Assembly (NCBI GenBank): GCA_937916275.1
Contig: CALFTD010000318.1
Location: forward strand, 27,446 to 91,445
Source of the DNA: an uncultured Planctomicrobium sp.
GTDB lineage: Bacteria; Planctomycetota; Planctomycetia; Planctomycetales; Planctomycetaceae
DNA: 64,000 bases
Reading direction: 5' to 3'
The stretch's first letter is position 1. Every line of letters begins with the position of its first letter. A program made the position numbers and the translations under genes. This document shows positions 4,141 through 63,111 of this stretch, piece after piece. The notes beneath the pieces were generated by a model. It was not told where the DNA came from. It was given only the letters and a program-made list of their open reading frames with translations, and searched no databases.

Positions 4141-4380
4141 AGCAAAGCTCCTGGAAGTAGATAGTAAACAGAATTAATCATTAACGTACAATAGTACGCC
4201 AATGAGATGCAATCGTAATTTAAAGAACACTTCTGGTATGTCAGCACGACATCACAAGTCTTTAGGTTTAACGGCAAGCCATAGGCGTTGAAGTTTATCG
4301 TTTAACGCAGTCTCCTAGCAGTTAAACGAATTCTCACCAACAACTTGTGAACAGATGCTTAAGTAAATCACTTCTTGTTA

Positions 4381-4407
4381 TTTCACCCTTGCCCCTCGAT
4401 CCCTAGC
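4381..4407 (-). repeat. 27-nt conserved intergenic motif, copy 1 (plus strand tttcacccttgcccctcgatccctagc; minus strand GCTAGGGATCGAGGGGCAAGGGTGAAA)
   Basis: The identical 27-mer recurs at 33754-33780 in the same orientation. Both copies lie 5' of minus-strand genes. Confidence 0.85.
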
Positions 4408-4431
4408 TTCTTGCTCACGCGATTAGCCGCG

Positions 4432-12766: not shown

Positions 12767-12799
12767 GTTTAGCTGCACACTTAATGTGTGCAGCTAAAC
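12767..12799. repeat. GTTTAGC-type palindromic hairpin (terminator-like), perfect copy
   Basis: gtttagctgcacac-ttaat-gtgtgcagctaaac forms a 14-bp perfect stem with a 5-nt loop. It begins 15 nt after the stop of the radical-SAM gene. No T-tract follows. Confidence 0.85.
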
Positions 12800-16823: not shown

Positions 16824-16849
16824 GTTTAGCTGCACACATTATGTGTGCA
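16824..16849. repeat. GTTTAGC-type hairpin, degenerate copy
   Basis: gtttagctgcacac-attat-gtgtgca has the same left arm as the 12767 copy, and its right outer arm has decayed. It lies 5 nt after the epimerase stop. Confidence 0.7.
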
Positions 16850-19607: not shown

Positions 19608-19618
19608 GTAAGAATCAT

Positions 19619-19650
19619 GTTTAGCCGGACACTAAAAGTGTCCGGCTAAA
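19619..19650. repeat. GTTTAGC-type palindromic hairpin between convergent genes
   Basis: gtttagccggacac-taaaa-gtgtccggctaaa forms a 13-bp stem between the ALDH stop (19605-19607) and the NRAMP-like stop (19659-19661). Confidence 0.85.
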
Positions 19651-21592: not shown

Positions 21593-21670
21593 ACTGAGGC
21601 ACGGAGAAATGAAACGGTGCGTAGTTTTCGATCCAGATTGTCCTCAGTGCTCTTCGTGGCGTTTCATTTC
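21593..21670. repeat. intergenic word-array pair (region F)
   Basis: actgaggcacggagaaatgaaacg at 21593-21616 and cctcagtgctcttcgtggcgtttcatttc at 21642-21670. gaaatgaaacg pairs with cgtttcatttc as an 11-bp complement, and actgagg pairs with cctcagt. Confidence 0.75.
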
Positions 21671-21740
21671 AGAGAATGGTCGCAGCGACTAAACTCTCGG
21701 ACAAACCATCATTCCATATCTTTTTAAAGCTCTTCATCCT

Positions 21741-22737: not shown

Positions 22738-22937
22738 GTAGGTTGGGTGAAGCGAGATGAAAAATAACGGTAATTCAAAGCAACTAATGTGAAGGTCTTT
22801 GTTGAAGTGAATTCTATCGAGAGACAAGCGTAACCCAACATCTGCGATCTAGAGTTGGCGTGAAGTGACAGCGATCCTGATCTTCCGAATGGCTTACTCC
22901 GGTCGTGCTGGGTTTCGCTCCGCTGCACCCAACCTAC
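22738..22937 (+). repeat. 200-bp REPIN/MITE-like element, copy 1
   Basis: Terminal inverted repeats gtaggttgggtgaagcg and cgctgcacccaacctac, with internal gcgtaacccaaca and gggtttcgctccgctgcaccc hairpin modules. The element begins with GTAG, like REP sequences. Confidence 0.85.
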
Positions 22938-24403: not shown

Positions 24404-24603
24404 GTAGGTTGGGTGAAGCGCGGTAAATATTGAAGCTCAATCAAAGCTAATAATGCTAAGCTCTTTGTTGAAATAATCTGGAAGGAGAGATGAGCGTAAC
24501 CCAACACCTGCGAATTAATTTTGGTGTTAGGTGACTGCGATCTCATTCTTCCAAGTGACCTACTTCGATTATGTTGGGTTTCGCTCCGCTGCACCCAACC
24601 TAC
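24404..24603 (+). repeat. 200-bp REPIN/MITE-like element, copy 2
   Basis: Same length, termini and orientation as 22738-22937. By my manual ungapped alignment it is about 70 percent identical, with the termini and the gcgtaacccaaca core identical. Confidence 0.85.
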
Positions 24604-25940: not shown

Positions 25941-25964
25941 AGAAGCGAACACTTTTTATTGAAT

Positions 25965-25996
25965 GTATAGCCCCACACTTGAAGTGTGGGGCAAAC
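25965..25996. repeat. GTTTAGC-type hairpin, variant copy
   Basis: gtatagccccacac-ttgaa-gtgtggggcaaac has a 9-bp perfect core stem (gccccacac/gtgtggggc) and lies 22 nt after the DUF1549/1553 gene stop. Confidence 0.75.
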
Positions 25997-31022: not shown

Positions 31023-31051
31023 TTTGTCTCACACATGAAGTGTGAGGCAAA
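31023..31051. repeat. GTTTAGC-family hairpin, divergent copy
   Basis: tttgtctcacac-atgaa-gtgtgaggcaaa forms a 12-bp stem including one G-T pair. It begins 11 nt after the ppk1 stop. Confidence 0.7.
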
Positions 31052-31093
31052 ACAAGATTTCTGATTTAACGTACTTTAGTATTGATTGATTTC

Positions 31094-33691: not shown

Positions 33692-33753
33692 TAAATCAGA
33701 TGGCTTTGACTTATAAGTTCTTGAAACTAATTATGATCAATCGGGTGTTGATT

Positions 33754-33780
33754 TTTCACCCTTGCCCCTCGATCCCTAGC
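33754..33780 (-). repeat. 27-nt conserved intergenic motif, copy 2
   Basis: Identical to 4381-4407. It lies about 60 nt upstream of the tsaB start codon on the same (minus) strand. Confidence 0.85.
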
Positions 33781-33860
33781 GCCTTGACCAGCGACCTCAG
33801 ATGACTCTCCCTTTTTTAACAGATACAATCCTTAGGTCGCTTTGAGAGTTATAGCAAATT

Positions 33861-37927: not shown

Positions 37928-37996
37928 CTCTCAGTCTTTCTGTATTTCAAATCTTCAGTGAACTTCATAGCGAATATGCGCGACGAGAAAATGATA

Positions 37997-38454
37997 TCAC
38001 CACGGAGGCACGGAGAACACTGAGGAGAAAACGATTGAAGAAATTTCGTGTCAGTTCACAGACTTAAAAGAATCGTAAGCGTTCACAACTTCTGATTAAA
38101 AAATGAACAGGAGGACGCGAAGGGAGCAGAGAATTAACTTGATCTAGACCTTCTTAATCACAAAGGTAAATAGCAGGGTTCTGCGCCCCCCCCCCCTGAA
38201 GGTCAATGTTTGATCAAGATACTAAGCTGTGGAAGTAATAAGTCTCAGAACCAATTCAAAAAACGTCCTCTGCTCTCTCTGATTCCTCCTGTTTAATCTT
38301 TTAGCTTGAACGGTTACAAAGAATCGACAGTTTCTTGACCACGAAAAGCACGAATCACGCGAAAGAAAAGAGACGGGATCAACATGCTGCTATACAGGAT
38401 AGAACGGGAAGTAAGATGAAATCTTATCTCCGTGCCTCTGCGTCTCCGTGGTGA
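37997..38454. repeat. composite intergenic repeat region A: nested inverted arrays of 9-bp-periodic words
   Basis: Outer pair: A1 37997-38031 tcaccacggaggcacggagaacactgaggagaaaa and A1' 38427-38454 (rc tcaccacggagacgcagaggcacggaga). Inner pair: A2 38106-38132 aacaggaggacgcgaagggagcagaga and A2' 38264-38294 (rc aaacaggaggaatcagagagagcagaggacg). An extra array A3 lies at 38337-38365. Confidence 0.8.
38186..38196 (+). repeat. C11 homopolymer tract
   Basis: ctgcg-ccccccccccc-tgaagg lies in the centre of repeat region A. Confidence 0.9.
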
Positions 38455-38479
38455 ATTTCTTTTACCGTTGCACCAGGTT

Positions 38480-39481: not shown

Positions 39482-39506
39482 TGGTGGCTTGCAATAATTT
39501 CTCGGT

Positions 39507-39535
39507 GTTTAGCCAGCCACTTAAAGTGGCTGCTA
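39507..39535. repeat. GTTTAGC-type hairpin, variant copy
   Basis: gtttagccagccac-ttaaa-gtggctgcta has a 7-bp core that extends with one bulge. It abuts the TAA (39536-38) of the upstream gene. Confidence 0.7.
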
Positions 39536-40663: not shown

Positions 40664-40853
40664 GGCGGTCCGACATCCTGGCGTCTGAATACGTCATCCG
40701 TGCTCAAGAGATTCGTGAAATTACAAATCTTCGAGTAACATAAATTATCTGTCTCAAAGTCCCAGTATAAGTAGGTTTATGAAAACTGGTCAAGCTGCGG
40801 TCTTCTGGAAGACTATTCCATCTCAGAAAATCCCTGAATTTACCTGCTCTGGC

Positions 40854-41158
40854 GTTAGCCCAATGGTATCTACATAGTCTCTACTCCGAAGGAGTTTCAG
40901 CCATTAGCCGGTGGTTTTGAGCGCAGCGACACCACCGGTTCATTGATCTTCAGCGAGTGCATCCTGAAGGGATGCCAGCAGATGAAGTGTAAGTGATCCT
41001 CTTGTTTCTCAGGTGTTTGCACGTTCAAAGCTGTGATCCCTCCGGGATAATGTGGACGGTGTGACCTCATTCCGGTGGTGACGCTGCGCTCACCACCGGC
41101 TAATCGCTACGACCCCGCCGGGGTTAAGTTCACACAAAGTCGACGACATTGGGCTAAC
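40854..41158. mobile_element. 305-bp MITE-like long imperfect palindrome
   Basis: 12-bp perfect termini gttagcccaatg (40854-65) and cattgggctaac (41147-58). Sub-terminal mirrored modules are attagccggtggt..gagcgcagcg.caccaccgg (40908-38 and 41072-99). Small hairpins are ctccgaaggag, gcatcctgaagggatgc, atccctccgggat and ccccgccgggg. Confidence 0.7.
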
Positions 41159-41302
41159 ACTCGATAACCATAAGTTCCGCAGTGAACTTGCTTTCGGTGA
41201 TTGCCCTGTGACAGTTCTCTTGGTAGCTTGGAAGAATAATGCAAACAGGATTTGCCGCTGAAACGTATCGAGTTGCGTCATCTGCGGTTCAACATCCCTT
41301 TG

Positions 41303-43031: not shown

Positions 43032-43066
43032 TTCTCCTCCGTGTCTCAGTGCCTCCGTGGTGAATA
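43032..43066 (-). repeat. solo word array (region E)
   Basis: The rc reads atattcaccacggaggcactgagacacggaggagaa, the same family as A1 and B1. Confidence 0.75.
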
Positions 43067-44055: not shown

Positions 44056-44064
44056 TAACTCTTC

Positions 44065-44096
44065 GTTTTGCCGGACACTTCAAGTGTCCGGCTAAC
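44065..44096. repeat. GTTTAGC-type hairpin, CCGGACAC subfamily
   Basis: gttttgccggacac-ttcaa-gtgtccggctaac has a 9-bp perfect core and begins 10 nt after the preceding stop. Confidence 0.8.
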
Positions 44097-44132
44097 CACA
44101 CTTGATTCATGTAAACACATTGAAATCCAATC

Positions 44133-49030: not shown

Positions 49031-49951
49031 TTATCCTGGTGGTGGGTCTGTTCGATTTGGAAATTCCATTTCAAAGGTACAGCCAGTTGCTCCTCCTTGT
49101 CGGTCTTTGACTTGAATTCGTCCGCCTGATTTCTTGACAAGTGTGTTCACAATGTACAAGCCGAGCCCTGTCCCCTTACGGCGACGTTCGAGTTCGCTGC
49201 CGCCGCGATAGAAGATAGTAAAGACTTTTTTGCGGTCATCGAGAGAGATACCTGATCCGTTATTCGAGATGTGAATCTGTACTCGACTGCGACCGTGGGG
49301 TCTGACTTTGACCGTAACTTCAGGTTGCTCGCCGCTGTATTTGACGGCGTTGTCAATCAGATTCGAAAAGATGAGATCAACAACGATTTTCTTTGCTCGT
49401 ATTGTGACAGGCTCCACATCGAAAGTGAAAACCTCGTCCAACTTGACCTTCCAATTGAGGCAGGCTGTTTCCGCATATTGCCTAAGCAACGTGGTGACTT
49501 CGATGTCATCAGGTTCGTCGTTATCACCGAGAGCATCGAGTCTCCCGACTTCAAGGAGTTGACTGATGAGGCTGTCGAGTCGTTGTAACTCATTCGCCAT
49601 GATTCCTTGAAACTCTTCCCGCTTCTCATCAGAAAGATCCCGCATTCGCAATGTTTCTAAATAGAGTTGCAGTGCTGCGATCGGTGATTTCAATTCATGG
49701 GTGACACTATCTACAAAGTTCGCCTGCCGATTGTTAAGGCCGATCTCCTTGAGAGTCAGCACCAGCCAAGCTGAAAGACCAGCGAGAATCAGGGTGAATG
49801 CCAGCACGCCAATTGTCAACGCACCCCACAGCGAACGATGAGAGAGCACAATGATCCAACAAACCATCAACGTGACATTGAGCACCATCAGGCTGACACT
49901 CAACGTAATCGGAAGATGGATTTTGCTCCGTTTGCGGAAGTATGTCGCCAT
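49031..49951 (-). CDS. two-TM sensor histidine kinase (HisKA + HATPase_c)
   Basis: 306-aa ORF with H-box SVTHELKSPIAAL and the N and G boxes NLIDNAVKY, NNGSGI and GTGLGLYIV. No response regulator is adjacent. Confidence 0.8.
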   Translation of the reverse strand: MATYFRKRSKIHLPITLSVSLMVLNVTLMVCWIIVLSHRSLWGALTIGVLAFTLILAGLSAWLVLTLKEIGLNNRQANFVDSVTHELKSPIAALQLYLETLRMRDLSDEKREEFQGIMANELQRLDSLISQLLEVGRLDALGDNDEPDDIEVTTLLRQYAETACLNWKVKLDEVFTFDVEPVTIRAKKIVVDLIFSNLIDNAVKYSGEQPEVTVKVRPHGRSRVQIHISNNGSGISLDDRKKVFTIFYRGGSELERRRKGTGLGLYIVNTLVKKSGGRIQVKDRQGGATGCTFEMEFPNRTDPPPG

Positions 49952-50004
49952 GAAAGAGTAGTTCTTGGGGAATTTGAAAAGTCGAATTCAATTTAAGTGA
50001 AATA

Positions 50005-50374
50005 TTACCACGGAGGCACGGAGAGCACTGAGGAGAAAGATAATTCGTGAGTCGCAATTTACTGAGGGGCATCAACTTTCTGAAAGAGGTTAAAATTTTG
50101 AAGATGTTGTTTAACCACGAAACACACAAATGACACGAAAAATTAGTGATTGAACTGCTGACCGTGTCTGTTTCAATAGGAAGACTCAAATAACATTGGA
50201 GTGGTCAATTTTACGATTCATCTTACAAATCCAGAATTTTCATCCAGTAGATCATGTTCATCCTGTTTCTTTTCTTTCGTATAGTTCGTGCTTTTCGTGG
50301 TTAAAGATTGTTGAGCCTCATAAGTCCGTGAATGGCATCAACTTTCTTTCCTCCGTGTCCTCTGTGCCTCCGTG
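50005..50374. repeat. composite intergenic repeat region B: nested inverted arrays of 9-bp-periodic words
   Basis: Outer pair: B1 50005-50039 ttaccacggaggcacggagagcactgaggagaaag and B1' 50346-50374 (rc cacggaggcacagaggacacggaggaaag). Inner pair: B2 50111-50142 ttaaccacgaaacacacaaatgacacgaaaaa and B2' 50271-50304 (rc ttaaccacgaaaagcacgaactatacgaaagaaa). Confidence 0.85.
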
Positions 50375-50398
50375 TTTCATTCTCATTGCTTTATCGAA

Positions 50399-51727
50399 TC
50401 ACTCAGCTCGTGGTGGCAAAAGTGGTCCGTTTGCTGGTGGTTCTGGGCTGGGGAACGCAGGAGTTGGCAAGTCCTTGTTTAAGTCTTCAGGCTGCGCAGG
50501 TATCAAACTGGGAGTTTTCTCGAAAACTCTCCTCGCGCGCTCTTCGCCTACAATTTCTCCTCGGTCTCCTGCCTCTGGAGCGGGAGGAACGAAGCCGGGT
50601 TGCAATTTCTTACCTGGTTCAAAAACACGTGGTGAAACAACAGGTGTGGGGACAGGTTCGTTACCCGCTGTCGAGGACTCATCAACGAGTGGTCGCAGGA
50701 ATGCGACGAGATGTCGCTCGACGCCGTTCAATTGAACGGCTGTCTCTAACAACCCTTTCGCACGCACATCCCCGTCGAGCATCATGACGGCTGCTAGTAG
50801 GAACAGTCGGTTAGGATCTCGAACGTCTCGATTTGTCCATTCTGCGATCCGAGTTTTGATGCGATTCTTTTCGTCACGCTTCATCCAGTCATTTGGATCA
50901 TGGAGACCGTAGAGTTGGTCGAGTGTGACGCCCTGTGATGGCCAATCCATGTCGAGTTCAGTAGCGATTTTTAATTGATCGACTGCTTCATCAAAACGAC
51001 TGCGGGCAGCGAGCGATAACGCATATCGATAGCGAGGGTCTGCTTGATCTGGAGCGAGATTCATCGCATCCCGATAGTGTTCGCCCGCTCGGCGATAATC
51101 GGTTTTGGCGAAAGCTTCATCCCCTAAGACACGCTCCCGGAGAGAACGCTCTCGCTGGGCTGGTGTTGATTGGTCGACGATTGGTGTCGGCTCGATCTGA
51201 TTATTGAACTGTTGTGGATTTTGAGCTTGAAACGGATTCGGTTGGAACCCTCGACCGATCATTGTTTGACCATTCGCACCATTTTGATATGGGACATGGT
51301 TAATGGTCGGCACTCCGGGGATGTCGCCAAACAACCCATAGGTGCCGTATTGAGGATAAACTGGTCCCGGGTAAACCAGATTTGGTGTCGCGAAGTAGGG
51401 TCTGTTCAATCCGTAAATCGGAGAATACTCGGGGTATGCGTATGGTGAATAAAAATTTAAGCCCGGGGTGTAGATATTCACCGAGGAACGACCGGAGTAA
51501 ATTCTGGAGCCATTGACTCCAGAATGAAACGAAGATCCGCCACCATTCCAGGGTCGACCGTATCGCAATTGATATTGGTAGTGTGACTGCGTTGGACCGT
51601 AGGGACGTCCGGTTGCTCCGTAAACAAGCGGATAAGATTTCCGAGATTTGCGGGGAGGGTCAGCGGATGTGATGTTCGCCATTCCGAGGATGAGCAAAAG
51701 ACTCAAAAGGCTGGTGAAATAATTCAT
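50399..51727 (-). CDS. hypothetical secreted protein: Y/G/P/N-rich region + TPR-like helical repeats + proline-rich tail
   Basis: The ORF is open to 51835. The ATG at 51725-51727 gives the signal peptide MNYFTSLLSLLLILGMANITSA. It has TPR-like AEHYRDAMNLAPD..YALSLAA. Confidence 0.5.
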   Translation of the reverse strand: MNYFTSLLSLLLILGMANITSADPPRKSRKSYPLVYGATGRPYGPTQSHYQYQLRYGRPWNGGGSSFHSGVNGSRIYSGRSSVNIYTPGLNFYSPYAYPEYSPIYGLNRPYFATPNLVYPGPVYPQYGTYGLFGDIPGVPTINHVPYQNGANGQTMIGRGFQPNPFQAQNPQQFNNQIEPTPIVDQSTPAQRERSLRERVLGDEAFAKTDYRRAGEHYRDAMNLAPDQADPRYRYALSLAARSRFDEAVDQLKIATELDMDWPSQGVTLDQLYGLHDPNDWMKRDEKNRIKTRIAEWTNRDVRDPNRLFLLAAVMMLDGDVRAKGLLETAVQLNGVERHLVAFLRPLVDESSTAGNEPVPTPVVSPRVFEPGKKLQPGFVPPAPEAGDRGEIVGEERARRVFEKTPSLIPAQPEDLNKDLPTPAFPSPEPPANGPLLPPRAE

Positions 51728-51968
51728 AGAGCATTCCCAATGCTTCTGTTGTCCTCGAAGTACGTTTTCGCACTTTGGATCGTTGATCTCACGCGACATT
51801 TCGGCGGAGTCGAATTTTGAATTTGCTATCGTCATCAGATGTTCCTATTTTGCCCGTGCAGATGAATTATACCCGCAAAATTCACTGAGATGGTAGGATT
51901 CTCTTGCGAAAAAAGTGTGTCATCCAAAAACAGTTCCTTGCATGCAACCCATATTTTACCGAAACCGT

Positions 51969-56698: not shown

Positions 56699-57051
56699 GC
56701 CACAGAGTTCACCGAGGACTCAGAGAAGAAAAATTGATGTCGTTCTGAACTGAACTCATGGAAATGGTCACAATCTTGACTGATTTTTTAGAACGCAGAT
56801 ACTCGCGGATGATGCGGATTTCCACAGATAAAAAGGAAGTGTCATTCGGCTTCTCCCAATCTGTGACAATCCGTTTCATCCGTGACGATCTGTGTTCTCC
56901 TTATTGATATTGATCTCCTCTGTGGATATTGAGTGACTTTCAGTCAACACTCGATCCTAGACAACTTCAGACGGCTGATGTTTTACGATAAAGCGTTGCT
57001 TTCAGCGCACAGTTTTTCTCTTTTCTCCGTGTCTCAGCGCCTTCGCGGTAA
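56699..57051. repeat. composite intergenic repeat region D: nested inverted arrays of 9-bp-periodic words
   Basis: Outer pair: D1 56699-56733 gccacagagttcaccgaggactcagagaagaaaaa and D1' 57013-57051 (rc ttaccgcgaaggcgctgagacacggagaaaagagaaaaa). Inner pair: D2 56793-56834 acgcagatactcgcggatgatgcggatttccacagataaaa and D2' 56859-56894 (rc cacagatcgtcacggatgaaacggattgtcacagat). Confidence 0.8.
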
Positions 57052-57098
57052 TTTTATTTATCTTAGCCGCAAAATCACCAGAAGAATCTGCCATGACT

Positions 57099-58660: not shown

Positions 58661-58692
58661 TTTTCGGGACAATCGTTTCATCATTCTCAGTC
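58661..58692 (-). repeat. solo word array (region H)
   Basis: ttttcgggacaatcgtttcatcattctcagtc shares gacaatc(c)gtttcatc with D2' and the word set actgag/atgaaacg with region F. Confidence 0.65.
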
Positions 58693-59803: not shown

Positions 59804-60751
59804 ATGCCTCCACGTCGGCGACCAACGAAAAAGTCTGGATCCTCAGAGATTCACCATCTTCATCCCAACCAGTTTTTAGAGTCATTTCTCTCTTATCTGG
59901 AGGCGGAATGTGGCATGTCGTTGAATACCGTCAAAGCTTATCGAAATGATGTTGAGCAATTCATCAGCTGGATGAACGAGGCAAATGTAGGTTCCGTTTT
60001 GGATGTGGACCTGGGAGTTTTGTCACAGTTTCTGGGATCGCTCCACGAAAGAGAACTGAAGGCGACCACAATTTCCCGTCGACTTGTCGCTTTGAAAATG
60101 TTCTTTCGCTATCTCGTATTAGAAGGCGTCGTCGCAGAGAGTAGCGTCGAGTTGATGTCTTCTCCAAAACTTTGGCAGTACTTGCCCACCGTGCTCAGTC
60201 CTGAAATGGTCGACCGCTTGCTGGAAGCTCCGACATGGGAAGACAGTTTCCCCAAGCGAGATCGTGCGATACTTGCAATCCTCTATGCAACAGGTTGCCG
60301 AGCGTCAGAGGTGAGCGGAATGCGACTTAGGGATATCCGCCTGGAAGAGAACTACTGTCGTTGCCTGGGGAAAGGAAACAAAGAACGGATCGTCAATCTG
60401 AATCCGTTCGCAAAGAAGACGATCGAAACCTTCCTGGAGAAAGAACGTCCCAAGCTGCTCCGCAATAGGGAAAGTGAATACCTCTTTCTGACGAGAACAG
60501 GTCGATCTATTAGTCGCATCATGGTCTGGCAAGTCGTTAAGAAATACGCTGCCCGAATCGGGTGCAGCGACAAAATTAGCCCACACACACTCCGGCATAG
60601 TTTCGCCACTCACATGCTCGCTGGTGGAGCGGAAATTCGGGCGTTACAAGAAATGCTGGGGCATGCCAGTATTCGTACAACTCAAATCTACACTCAAGTT
60701 GAACATAGTCGTTTGAAGTCGATCCATTCGAGTTGTCATCCGCGCGGATGA
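59804..60751 (+). CDS. xerD: tyrosine site-specific recombinase XerD
   Basis: 315-aa ORF with N-terminal SAM-like domain and catalytic motifs ATGCRASE, HTLRHSFATHML and LGHASIRTTQIYT. Confidence 0.85.
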   Translation: MPPRRRPTKKSGSSEIHHLHPNQFLESFLSYLEAECGMSLNTVKAYRNDVEQFISWMNEANVGSVLDVDLGVLSQFLGSLHERELKATTISRRLVALKMFFRYLVLEGVVAESSVELMSSPKLWQYLPTVLSPEMVDRLLEAPTWEDSFPKRDRAILAILYATGCRASEVSGMRLRDIRLEENYCRCLGKGNKERIVNLNPFAKKTIETFLEKERPKLLRNRESEYLFLTRTGRSISRIMVWQVVKKYAARIGCSDKISPHTLRHSFATHMLAGGAEIRALQEMLGHASIRTTQIYTQVEHSRLKSIHSSCHPRG

Positions 60752-60754
60752 GAT

Positions 60755-60787
60755 GTGATGCCGGACACTTTAAGTGTCCGGCAAAAC
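60755..60787. repeat. GTTTAGC-type hairpin, CCGGACAC subfamily, between convergent genes
   Basis: gtgatgccggacac-tttaa-gtgtccggcaaaac has a 9-bp perfect core identical to the copies at 19619 and 44065. Confidence 0.8.
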
Positions 60788-60794
60788 GACGAAT

Positions 60795-62654: not shown

Positions 62655-62818
62655 AGAGTCAGAAATGGTTTGAATCTTATTCACATCTTGCAAAGATCGC
62701 TCGCTGGAAGCAACTGAACTAGAGTGAAGAAGTGGGATGTGTTTTGGACATACGCGAGACTGGGGATGTCGTACTCTTTGGTTTATAACCGTTCAAAGGC
62801 CGAAAGTTCGACGGTCTC

Positions 62819-62936
62819 TTAACCACGAAAATCACGAACCACACGAAAAAAAACATAATGAAATAGACATGTTCAGCGGTGCAAGCAGCTTTGCCTGCCG
62901 CGACACTCTTTTCGTGTCATTTGTGTATTTCGTGAC
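62819..62936. repeat. intergenic repeat region C: inverted pair of CACGAAA-type arrays
   Basis: C1 62819-62853 ttaaccacgaaaatcacgaaccacacgaaaaaaaa pairs with C1' 62907-62936 (rc gtcacgaaatacacaaatgacacgaaaaga). C1' rc matches B2 at 25 of 26 positions. Confidence 0.8.
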
Positions 62937-63059
62937 TAGGCAATAGTGTCAATGTCGTAAACTCTTACCTTCCTCTGCGGTGATTCAATATTTAGAATTT
63001 TTGGAATTACATATAGTGGGAAGGCTCAAAGTGATTCACAAAAAGTAAACCTACAAAAC

Positions 63060-63111
63060 TCCTCTGCTCTCTCTGCTTCCTTCTGTTCAATGTTTTTTCA
63101 TGAACGGTTAC
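63060..63111 (+). repeat. 52-bp module shared with region A (38266-38317)
   Basis: tcctctgctctctctgcttccttctgttcaat...tgaacggttac compares with region A tcctctgctctctctgattcctcctgtttaat...tgaacggttac. That is 29 of 32 positions plus an identical 11-mer at the same 41-nt offset. Confidence 0.8.

What the first reader, a model, noticed from the sequence alone, without database searches (positions are those of the whole stretch)
50005..50374. Nested inverted arrays of 9-bp-periodic CACGGAG / CACGAAA words (region B): a dispersed intergenic repeat family
The 447-bp spacer between the histidine kinase and the TPR-like gene has the structure B1 ... B2 ... B2' ... B1'. B1 is ttaCCACGGAGgCACGGAGagCACTGAGgagaaag, three words spaced 9 bp apart. 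B2 is ttaaCCACGAAAcACACAAAtgACACGAAAaa. The primed copies are imperfect reverse complements. The same word families recur in at least six other spacers of this window: 21593-21670, 37997-38454, 43032-43066, 56699-57051, 58661-58692 and 62819-63111. None lies in a coding region. B1 and A1 (37997) agree at 31 of 32 positions. Candidate explanations are a MITE family whose terminal repeats are built from periodic words, arrays of binding sites for a DNA-binding protein phased every 9 bp, or long imperfect RNA hairpins acting as insulators or RNase targets. I am not aware of a formal description of these elements.
Basis: seen in the sequence. Interest (0 to 1): 0.65.

Follow-up and report, generated by a model that had tools for sequence, protein, structure and literature searches.

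The report
Empty wrappers of GxxExxY nuclease cassettes
The nested inverted repeats between the kinase and TPR-like genes are real, were inserted in this lineage, and are a gene-less copy of a very widespread inverted-repeat "wrapper" that in other bacteria encloses a small GxxExxY nuclease gene; I found no description of this link in Rfam or the searchable papers.

Summary
Region B is a two-tier inverted repeat: outer CACGGAG-type arms at 50003-50038 and 50344-50380, inner CACGAAA-type arms at 50110-50142 and 50275-50305. Word spacing is 8-9 nt, not a uniform 9. Four of the six other sites are solid, 21593-21670 is marginal, and 58661-58692 is not supported.

The element is an insertion. The same spacer is 104-140 bp in two related planctomycetes, which have no arms in 3 x 21 kb. 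The inner arm is about 100-fold repeated in this organism's metagenomes.

The family is not lineage-specific. The outer-arm pattern hit the 120-locus limit in both genome and viral collections, across more than 10 phyla. Arms usually face each other around loops of 0-600 nt, and GAG-type arms enclose AAR-type arms (6 cases to 0).

Long loops hold GxxExxY (PD-(D/E)XK, PF13366) genes. Conversely, 58 of 74 GxxExxY genes chosen by protein alone are bracketed by the same word-array arms. A profile built only from those arms finds the window's arms.

I found no target-site duplications, no G-U bias, no gene remnants, no Rfam family and no literature.

Best reading: a non-autonomous DNA element of a GxxExxY-cassette family, analogous to MITE/IS or REPIN/RAYT. 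The mobilising enzyme is inferred, not shown.

The parts
50003..50038 (+). Outer arm B1, GAG-type word array: ttaCCACGGAGgCACGGAGagCACTGAGgagaaag. The CCAC end faces outward and the purine-rich end faces inward.
   Evidence: F1 profile E 1.9e-8. Profile built only from GxxExxY-cassette arms E 2.6e-6.
50110..50142 (+). Inner arm B2, AAR-type word array: tttaaCCACGAAAcaCACAAAtgaCACGAAAaa.
   Evidence: Summed contig depth here is 95-110 times the unique depth in four metagenomes.
50143..50274 (.). Central loop. It is non-coding and is not shared with other copies.
   Evidence: other copies join the two inner arms after as little as 3 nt. No GxxExxY remnant.
50275..50305 (-). Inner arm B2', the reverse complement of the AAR-type array.
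   Evidence: Depth about 14-19 times the unique depth.
50344..50380 (-). Outer arm B1', the reverse complement of the GAG-type array.
   Evidence: E 8e-7 with the F1 profile and 1.8e-4 with the cassette-arm profile.
37995..38030 (+). Element A, outer GAG-type arm.
   Evidence: E 2e-8 and 7e-7.
38098..38131 (+). Element A, inner arm of a third word type (CAGGAGG / CGCGAAGG / CAGAGAA).
   Evidence: 34 nt, 76% complementary to 38268-38301. (match to 63062-63100).
38268..38301 (-). Element A, partner of the third-type inner arm.
38324..38386 (+). Element A, unpaired AAR-type arm with its conserved outer flank.
   Evidence: 85% to 62808-62853 and to 50253-50304.
38424..38457 (-). Element A, outer GAG-type arm.
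   Evidence: E 5e-9 and 5e-7.
43033..43066 (-). Solo or truncated GAG-type arm C. Only a remnant (ccatCAGAGAAAG) of a partner lies upstream.
   Evidence: E 7e-10. The relative L129 has a 15-bp spacer here.
56700..56735 (+). Degenerate outer GAG-type arm (CCACAGAGttCACCGAGgaCTCAGAG).
   Evidence: Cassette-arm profile E 5e-4.
56790..56829 (+). Inner arm of a fourth word type (CGCAGAT / CGCGGAT / TGCGGAT / CACAGAT).
   Evidence: 40 nt, 80% complementary, 29-nt loop.
56859..56898 (-). Partner of the fourth-type inner arm.
57021..57061 (-). Degenerate outer GAG-type arm.
   Evidence: E 3e-4 with the cassette-arm profile.
62819..62853 (+). AAR-type arm of a short-loop pair.
62909..62934 (-). AAR-type partner arm. 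The loop is 59 nt.
   Evidence: 26 nt, 81% complementary.
63055..63111 (-). Solo arm of the third word type.
   Evidence: 84% over 57 nt to 38261-38317.
21593..21671 (.). Marginal, rearranged relative: two GAG-type words, a short inverted repeat, and an inverted 11-mer in non-nested order.
   Evidence: E 0.1-2 only.

Best explanation
Region B is a roughly 375-bp non-coding DNA element that was inserted between the TPR-like gene and the histidine-kinase gene in this planctomycete's lineage.

Its ends are arrays of three 7-nt words (C-R-C-N-R-A-R) spaced 8-9 nt apart. They sit in inverted orientation, with the CCAC end outward and a purine-rich end inward. There are two tiers: GAG-type arms outside and AAR-type arms inside.

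These arms are the signature inverted repeats of a very widespread family. Its complete members are compact cassettes of the form arm, GxxExxY PD-(D/E)XK nuclease gene, arm. Region B and its sister elements in the window are gene-less members of that family.

I infer that they spread at the DNA level, with the word arrays acting as cis sites recognised in trans by a GxxExxY-type nuclease. This would be analogous to MITEs with an IS transposase, or REPINs with RAYT. Their hairpin potential in transcripts would then be a by-product.

Shown:
- the architecture
- insertion relative to related species
- high copy number
- cross-phylum and viral-contig distribution
- tight physical association of such arms with GxxExxY genes
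- conserved nesting order
- intact catalytic D...ExK residues in the protein family

Inferred:
- that the protein binds or cuts the words
- that it mobilises gene-less copies
- that this genome encodes such a protein
For: - Architecture and non-randomness.
- Insertion. The TPR-HK spacer is 447 bp here, 140 bp in L126 and 104 bp in L129. Spacer A (552 bp) corresponds to abutting genes in L129. There are no arms in 3 x 21 kb of relatives.
- Copy number. Depth over B2 is 95-110 times the unique depth in four samples whose unique depth ranges from 5.6 to 64. The extra copies therefore track this organism (repeated). Short metagenome contigs break inside B1 and B2.
- Distribution. The pattern has about 17 chance matches expected in genome contigs. 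Matches share flanks outside the pattern (ttCA prefix, AAAA suffix). The AAR-type pattern also hit the limit.
- Pairing rule. Facing (+-) arm pairs number 64, against 7, 6 and 3 for the other orientations.
- Gene link, forward. Loop ORFs in L102 and L037 match TIGR04256 / PF13366 (E 1e-40 to 1e-45). GxxExxY is the only small-ORF family found next to arms in three or more loci; one other family, BCCP-like, occurred in two.
- Gene link, converse. 58 of 74 protein-selected GxxExxY genes are bracketed by an inverted repeat scoring at least 18 (shuffles: mean 9.5, maximum 17). Nearly all of the listed arms are word arrays of this grammar. With an independent profile, 61 of 67 arms lie within 300 nt of the gene.
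- Cross-validation. A profile built only from those cassette arms finds seven window arms at E 5e-7 to 5e-4, all intergenic.
- Conserved two-tier order. GAG-type encloses AAR-type in 5 unrelated loci plus the window, and never the reverse. The CAC or CGC flavour is the same in both tiers in all five.
- Nuclease residues D83, E93 and K95 are 99-100% conserved in 77 sequences.
Against: - No GxxExxY gene or remnant lies in the 64-kb window. I could not show that this genome has one.
- Arms far outnumber genes. There are 4 genes in about 1 Mb of arm-selected bacterial loci and none in 1.07 Mb of viral loci holding 346 arms.
- No gene remnants occur in 78 loops, so gene-less copies are not recently decayed cassettes.
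- No target-site duplication of 5 nt or more, and no empty site was seen within the population. The element's ends and the transposition chemistry are therefore undefined.
- One cassette (L210 and L211-216) sits at the same operon position in related strains, which is vertical inheritance rather than recent movement.
- Association does not give direction. The gene could instead be a passenger that targets pre-existing hairpins.
Confidence: 0.55

Rival explanations
1. RNA-level wrapper. The arms act as long double-stranded RNA stems, processed by RNase III or acting as insulators, as in 23S rRNA intervening sequences. They would let a promoter-less cassette be cut out of host transcripts, or shield it from them. 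Gene-less copies would be terminators, insulators or stabilisers retained for the host.
For: - Strong predicted folds on both strands.
- The cassette in L210 sits between genes of one operon.
- Metatranscriptome contigs cover B1, B1' and other inner-arm copies.
- The last word of the upstream arm lies 0-11 nt before the start codon in 13 of 38 cassettes, a Shine-Dalgarno-like position. The downstream arm starts 1-19 nt after the stop in 24 of 32.
- The Coxiella IVS has the same layout: a 28-bp terminal stem, a small ORF and RNase III cleavage (PMC4990558).
Against: - Arm mismatches show no preference for G-U on the sense strand (77 against 94, p 0.22), and transversions are as common (195).
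- Elements also lie in divergent promoter regions (tandem 29, convergent 16, divergent 10, and window sites 21593 and 62819).
- Only one terminator-like site was found, inside B1.
- An RNA stem alone does not explain why the same words are kept across phyla, nor the insertion pattern.
- No Rfam family matches.
Confidence: 0.2
2. Classical MITE. It would be a deletion derivative of a DDE-type insertion sequence whose transposase binds the terminal inverted repeats.
For: Terminal inverted repeats, small size, no coding capacity, multiple copies, intergenic location and insertion polymorphism between species.
Against: - No target-site duplication above chance in 58 cassettes and 64 pairs.
- Interiors are unrelated between copies and loop length runs continuously from 0 to 600 nt.
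- No transposase gene was found between arms. In a screen of loci that included the 80 chosen for GxxExxY, 18 of 20 inverted-repeat-bracketed ORFs of 80-260 aa were GxxExxY; one of the other two was a Y1 transposase-like gene flanked by unrelated REP-type palindromes. In the arm-selected loci the loop ORFs were GxxExxY (L102, L037) and DUF6335 (L007).
Confidence: 0.1
3. Homing target. The word-array hairpins are an independent repeat family, and GxxExxY is a free-standing homing endonuclease gene that cuts empty hairpins and is copied into their loops.
For: - The gene sits inside the loop of a pair.
- There are no target-site duplications.
- Many empty hairpins exist.
- The catalytic triad is conserved.
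- Some loci show hairpin-gene-hairpin or arm-gene-arm-loop-arm layouts.
Against: - It leaves unexplained how the empty hairpins themselves spread and stay conserved across phyla.
- Arms of 30-35 nt are short homology for repair-mediated copying.
Confidence: 0.1
4. Host regulatory DNA: phased binding sites for a host DNA-binding protein, or invertible promoter switches flanked by inverted repeats.
For: Periodic words and inverted pairs in intergenic DNA. A tyrosine recombinase gene lies at 59804-60751.
Against: - The elements are absent from the same spacers in related species.
- They occur in viral contigs and in more than 10 phyla.
- A spacing of 8 nt does not keep sites on one face of B-DNA.
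- No strand-switch joints at the arms appear in contigs from eight metagenomes.
Confidence: 0.04

Closest known systems
REPIN / REP sequences with their RAYT transposase (REPtrons), and the TIR-flanked variants (TIRtrons) of Di Nocera et al. 2013 (PMC3733652)
   Same: Many short gene-less inverted doublets that can form hairpins, plus a few copies in which the same repeats flank a small nuclease-type gene. Both are intergenic and are found as singles, dimers and clusters (for the published description).
   Different: - Each arm here is a tandem word array, not a palindrome.
- There is no GTAG or CGTC tag.
- The associated gene is a PD-(D/E)XK GxxExxY protein, not a Y1/HUH transposase.
- The one Y1-like gene seen (L026) is flanked by ordinary REP-type palindromes, not word arrays.
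- Loops reach hundreds of nt and are nested.
MITEs (for example Correia/NEMIS, RUP, Nezha, ERIC)
   Same: Small, non-coding, multi-copy, intergenic elements with terminal inverted repeats. They can fold in transcripts.
   Different: No target-site duplication. Interiors are not conserved. No DDE parent element was found. The same terminal sequence is kept across phyla.
23S rRNA intervening sequences carrying a small ORF (Coxiella IVS with S23p; PMC4990558)
   Same: A cassette of about 430-550 nt with terminal inverted repeats of about 28-30 bp around one small ORF of a large family of unknown function. Long suspected to be a relic of a mobile element.
   Different: The elements here are not in rRNA, and no rRNA lies in any of the loci. 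The ORF family differs (GxxExxY, not the four-helix-bundle S23p). RNase III cleavage was not tested here. The IVS arms were not available for comparison.
Cyanobacterial STRR heptamer repeats and BIME-type mosaic elements (from my own knowledge, not tested)
   Same: Short tandem words of 7-9 nt in intergenic DNA, and a mosaic build from several motif types.
   Different: STRRs are longer direct arrays that are not defined by inverted pairing. The arms here have three words and come in facing pairs with a fixed polarity.

Membership tests
   B1, B1', A1, A1' and C match the profile built only from cassette arms at E 5e-7 to 2e-4.
   Window pairs A and B have this polarity. Family-wide, +- is 64 against 7 for -+ and 93 against 34 in viral loci.
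   There is no gene or remnant in the window. The window copies are gene-less members, as are most arm pairs elsewhere.
   Region B has it, as do L238, L255, L278, L319 and L365. The reverse order was never seen.
MITE | Terminal inverted repeats, small size, no ORF, multiple copies. | tested here: met
MITE | Target-site duplication flanking the element. | tested here: not met
   Direct repeats of 5 nt or more at the ends are no more frequent than in shuffled pairings. Duplications of 2-4 nt cannot be excluded.
MITE | Copies share a conserved internal sequence derived from a parent IS that carries a transposase. | tested here: not met
   Only the arms are shared. No transposase was found between arms. 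No gene remnants occur in loops.
REP / REPIN-RAYT | Each unit is a 20-40 nt imperfect palindrome tagged by GTAG or CGTC (PMC3733652). | tested here: not met
   The arms are direct word arrays, are not self-complementary, and begin with CCACG.
REP / REPIN-RAYT | An associated Y1/HUH (RAYT) gene flanked by the repeats. | tested here: not met
   The flanked genes are GxxExxY and DUF6335. The Y1-like gene in L026 has different flanks.
23S rRNA intervening sequence | Located in helix 25 or 45 of the 23S rRNA gene. | tested here: not met
   The window elements lie between protein genes. There is no rRNA similarity in any fetched locus.
23S rRNA intervening sequence | The terminal stem is cleaved by RNase III. 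| not testable with these tools
   Only assembled metatranscriptome contigs were available.
Invertible promoter (inverton) | Both orientations of the segment between the inverted repeats exist in a population. | tested here: not met
   No strand-change joints at the arms appear in contigs of eight metagenomes. Contigs drop rare variants, so this test is weak.
Rfam RNA families | A match at the gathering score. | tested here: not met
   No hits in the window. Only noise at E up to 10 on region B. No family lies on 18 hairpin-bearing loci.

The most novel reading that the evidence does not exclude
A previously undescribed, cross-phylum class of mobile DNA. In it a roughly 125-aa PD-(D/E)XK (GxxExxY) nuclease, rather than a DDE, HUH, serine or tyrosine enzyme, recognises 8-9-nt word arrays. 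It would spread both its own compact cassette and very large numbers of gene-less, two-tier hairpin elements through bacterial and phage genomes. This would give a function to a large orphan protein family (19,550 clusters at 50% identity) and to unexplained intergenic repeats in Planctomycetota, Acidobacteriota, Gemmatimonadota, Verrucomicrobiota, Chloroflexota, Bacteroidota and others.
Probability: 0.3. Interest if true: 0.85.

Novelty: new variant of a known kind. Interest (0 to 1): 0.7.

Why it matters
If the link holds, it connects two orphan things. One is a huge family of small nucleases of unknown function (PF13366 / TIGR04256). The other is a class of intergenic repeats that inflate spacers, break metagenome assemblies and sit inside operons and phage genomes.

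It would add an enzyme type to the short list of proteins known to spread miniature repeats. It also gives a concrete, testable recognition code: three 7-nt words, spaced 8-9 nt apart, in two tiers.

For annotation, the arm profile marks inserted, non-orthologous DNA in spacers. It also explains contig ends in planctomycete and acidobacterial MAGs.

Tried and rejected
- Cyanobacterial origin and HIP1: only one GCGATCGC in the window.
- Rfam: nothing at gathering score in the window, only noise at E up to 10 on region B, and nothing on 18 hairpin loci.
- Literature: exact-word search gave 0 papers. GxxExxY / PF13366 gave 5 papers, none on repeats. IVS-protein terms gave nothing on these arms.
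- The first genome scan with a 31-nt pattern found nothing. The degenerate pattern was needed.
- Target-site duplications: none above control.
- RNA wobble-pair signature: none.
- Decayed GxxExxY genes in the window or in 78 loops: none.
- rRNA context (IVS): none.
- Inversion or empty-site variants in metagenome contigs: none. The reported joints are other genomic copies with shorter loops.
- Same exact cassette protein in different contexts: P0052 was found only at one orthologous operon site.
- Solved structures similar to GxxExxY by sequence: none.
- Annotated plasmids: a single unannotated match, in Gemmatirosa.
- Structure prediction was not run.
- The Y1 transposase-like gene in L026 was checked as a possible mobiliser. 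It was rejected because its flanks are ordinary REP-type palindromes.
Full report
**What is at the coordinates**

The 447-bp spacer lies between the histidine-kinase gene (49031-49951, minus strand; HisKA + HATPase_c) and the TPR-like gene (50399-51835, minus strand). It holds the described nested inverted repeat.
- The outer arms are 50009-50034 and 50349-50374 (26 nt, 85% complementary).
- The inner arms are 50110-50140 and 50275-50305 (31 nt, 81% complementary).
- Either strand of 49995-50385 folds better than all 100 dinucleotide shuffles (z -4.3 and -5.6).

The stated 9-bp period is not exact. In B1 the words start 8 and then 9 nt apart. The single heptamers are weakly or not over-represented (CACGGAG 15 found against 6.7 expected; CACGAAA 21 against 16). 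The arrays are what is non-random. Words of the form CRCNRAR that follow each other at 8-9 nt occur 15 times in 9.7 kb of intergenic DNA and once in 54 kb of coding DNA.

**Census in the window**

An all-against-all comparison of the spacers and inverted-repeat scans give four word types.
- GAG-type: 37995-38030 (+), 38424-38457 (-), 43033-43066 (-), 50003-50038 (+), 50344-50380 (-), and a degenerate pair at 56700-56735 (+) / 57021-57061 (-).
- AAR-type: 38324-38386 (+), 50110-50142 (+), 50275-50305 (-), 62819-62853 (+), 62909-62934 (-).
- A third type: 38098-38131 (+), 38268-38301 (-), 63055-63111 (-).
- A fourth, CGGAT-type: 56790-56829 (+), 56859-56898 (-).

Only the arms, and in some subfamilies a few tens of nt next to them, are shared between copies. 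The interiors are unrelated. Site 21593-21670 is a marginal, rearranged relative. Site 58661-58692 is not supported.

**It is an insertion and it is highly repeated**

The organism is a marine or estuarine member of the Planctomycetaceae near Thalassoglobus and Planctomicrobium. Syntenic loci of two relatives (TPR-like orthologues 78% and 64% identical) have TPR-HK spacers of 140 and 104 bp.

In L129 the pseudouridine-synthase and FAA-hydrolase genes abut, where the window has the 552-bp spacer A. The spacer that holds arm C is 15 bp there. No arm of either type was found by regular expression or profile in 3 x 21 kb of relatives.

Logan contigs of four metagenomes were laid on the region. The summed depth over B2 is 95-110 times the unique depth, over B2' 14-19 times, over B1 about 8 times and over B1' 2-3 times. 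These ratios hold while the unique depth varies from 5.6 to 64, so the extra copies belong to this organism or travel with it (repeated).

The "joints" in those tables are other copies, in which the two inner arms are separated by as little as 3 nt, or the two outer arms abut. No contig skips the whole element and none changes strand at the arms. Short public contigs end inside B1 and B2.

**The family is not lineage-specific**

Hits came from Planctomycetota, Acidobacteriota, Gemmatimonadota, Verrucomicrobiota, Chloroflexota, Bacteroidota, Proteobacteria, Nitrospirota, Cyanobacteria and some Firmicutes. They include the isolates Geothrix limicola and Lewinella cohaerens. The matches share sequence outside the pattern (ttCA before CCACGG, AAAA after the last word).

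A profile of these arms finds 210 arms in those loci.
- 168 arms have three words. Spacings are 8 nt (311 times) and 9 nt (86 times).
- Neighbouring arms within 650 nt are oriented +- 64 times, against 7, 6 and 3 for the other combinations.
- The distance between paired arms runs continuously from 0 to 608 nt.

IMG/VR can contain host fragments. By a crude ORF map, elements sit in tandem (29), convergent (16) and divergent (10) gene contexts.

**Link to a gene**

The three longest loops hold small ORFs. Two (L102, and L037 from a Chitinophagaceae MAG) are GxxExxY proteins (TIGR04256, E 2e-40 and 4e-45; PF13366 PDDEXK_3). One (L007) is DUF6335.

GxxExxY is the only small-ORF family found next to arms in three or more loci; a BCCP-like pair in two loci is probably coincidence. 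A fourth GxxExxY gene (L015) is flanked by hairpins built from another word.

For the converse test I fetched 80 metagenome loci chosen only by GxxExxY protein patterns.
- Of 74 with enough flank, 58 (78%) have an inverted repeat bracketing the gene with a local score of at least 18. Shuffles give a mean of 9.5 and a maximum of 17.
- Nearly all of the listed arms are word arrays of the same grammar, TTCACCACGGAGrCACGGAGrrCACGGAG. Word variants include CACAGAG, CGCAGAG, CGCGGAG, CACGAAG, CACGGAA, CGCAAAG and CGCCGAG.
- With the independent genome-derived profile, 61 of 67 arms in these loci lie within 300 nt of the gene.
- A profile built only from these cassette arms recovers seven of the window's arms at E 5e-7 to 5e-4, all intergenic.

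The protein family is large: 19,550 clusters at 50% identity with E up to 1e-3. It keeps an invariant D...ExK triad. It has no solved relative by sequence. The PD-(D/E)XK survey lists its function as unknown (PMC3424549).

**The nesting is a conserved architecture**

- 39% of loops of 60-450 nt contain a further inverted repeat (z above 3), against 0 of 66 control segments.
- Where both arm types occur together, the GAG-type pair encloses the AAR-type pair in L238, L255, L278, L319 and L365, as in region B. The reverse never occurs.
- The CAC or CGC flavour of the words is the same in the outer and inner tiers of each of these five elements. The two tiers therefore belong to one evolving unit rather than to chance nested insertions. 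This last point is my reading of five sequences, not a statistic.

**Tests bearing on mechanism**

- No direct repeats of 5 nt or more at the ends above shuffled controls.
- Mismatches between the two arms of a cassette show no excess of G-U on the sense strand (77 against 94) and as many transversions (195). I see no selection for RNA pairing.
- No GxxExxY remnants in the window or in 78 loops.
- No Rfam family.
- No rRNA in any locus.
- Metatranscriptome contigs cover B1 with the kinase 5' end (49845-50076), B1' with the TPR-like 3' end (50313-50601), and other inner-arm copies. These are assembled contigs that may include DNA.
- In cassettes the wrapper is tight. The downstream arm starts 1-19 nt after the stop in 24 of 32. 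The last upstream word lies 0-11 nt before the start in 13 of 38.
- One cassette sits between genes of a CO-dehydrogenase-like operon and is inherited vertically in related strains.

**Interpretation**

The evidence shows that region B is a gene-less member of the inverted word-array family that wraps GxxExxY genes. It also shows that it arrived by insertion and is multi-copy.

I infer that the arms are DNA-level cis sites for a GxxExxY-type nuclease acting in trans, by analogy with MITE/IS and REPIN/RAYT. The reasons are:
- arms and protein are conserved together across phyla
- the arms hug the gene
- each arm is kept as a sequence rather than merely as a pairing partner
- nothing points to a host factor

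Several things weaken this.
- Arms vastly outnumber genes, and there are no genes in 1.07 Mb of arm-rich viral loci.
- I could not show such a gene in this genome.
- The ends and the chemistry are undefined.

Alternatives kept open are an RNA-processing wrapper of the IVS type, a homing endonuclease gene that targets pre-existing hairpins, and a classical MITE.

**Comparison with known systems and novelty**

The closest analogues are:
- REPIN/RAYT and the TIR-flanked transposase genes of PMC3733652
- MITEs
- ORF-bearing 23S rRNA intervening sequences (PMC4990558)

The defining features of each were tested and at least one was not met (see the membership table). I recall that curators noted GxxExxY and four-helix-bundle genes as multi-copy and sometimes IVS-borne. 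That is memory and was not checked here.

Searches of 8 million open papers and bioRxiv found no description of these arms or of their link to GxxExxY. Subscription literature was not searched. I rate it a new variant of a known kind: a miniature inverted-repeat element with an unusual candidate enzyme and an unusual, conserved two-tier word-array end.

Noticed in passing
window 12767-12799, 16824-16849, 19617-19650, 25964-25995, 31023-31054, 39502-39528, 44060-44098, 60753-60792: A second, unrelated repeat family. It is a roughly 30-nt near-perfect palindrome, GTTTAGCCGGACACTTnAAGTGTCCGGCTAAAC, in eight short spacers. It looks REP-like or terminator-like.
   Followed up: partly
window 56756 / 57779 (locus L002, positions 1009-1016): A near-identical MAG contig joins window 57779 to 56756 in opposite orientation with only 8 nt of overlap, and ends at the other junction. 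This is either a roughly 1-kb inversion spanning the methyltransferase gene and the element at 56700-57061, or a chimeric fold-back assembly.
   Followed up: no
window 40854-41158: A roughly 300-nt long imperfect palindrome (arms of 33, 32 and 26 nt) in the 588-bp spacer 40664-41251. It is not of the word-array type and has no Rfam match.
   Followed up: no
window 22775-22933 and 24441-24599: A 159-nt direct repeat at 76% identity beside two minus-strand genes. It may be paralogous upstream regions or gene starts.
   Followed up: no
window 4366-4413 and 33739-33786: A 48-nt direct repeat at 83% identity in two distant spacers.
   Followed up: no
window 38187-38197: A run of 11 C at the centre of element A.
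   Followed up: no
window 50384-50401 (L001 9553): In MAG GCA_028270085.1 an indel makes the TPR-like gene 483 rather than 478 codons, so that it ends inside arm B1'.
   Followed up: partly
L026 4700-5500: In a Pirellulales MAG, a Y1_Tnp-like gene is flanked by ordinary REP-type palindromes (ttcggcctggcggccgacgctaa...). This is a REPtron-like unit unrelated to the word arrays, in a genome that also has GAG-type arms.
   Followed up: partly
L122 5795-5880; L062 2387-2467; L077 1146-1184; L012 5920-5960; L015 2598-2730 and 3150-3230: Other 7-8-nt word arrays (AAGTCAC, AATCCGC, GAACTGA, TGCAAAA, AGCAGCGA) in other phyla. Several form inverted pairs, and the L015 one flanks a GxxExxY gene. The word-array grammar is broader than the types in the window.
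   Followed up: partly
L007 1614-2283: A GAG-type arm pair encloses a DUF6335 gene (PF19861, E 4e-23) instead of GxxExxY, so the wrapper can carry other small cargo.
   Followed up: no
L210 1449-2007: The cassette layout here is arm(+), gene, arm(+), 11-nt loop, arm(-). The last arm can pair either locally or across the gene, giving two mutually exclusive structures.
   Followed up: no
proteins P0160-P0171 and others: Some GxxExxY representatives are 266-295 aa with two matched stretches, that is, tandem-domain forms.
   Followed up: no
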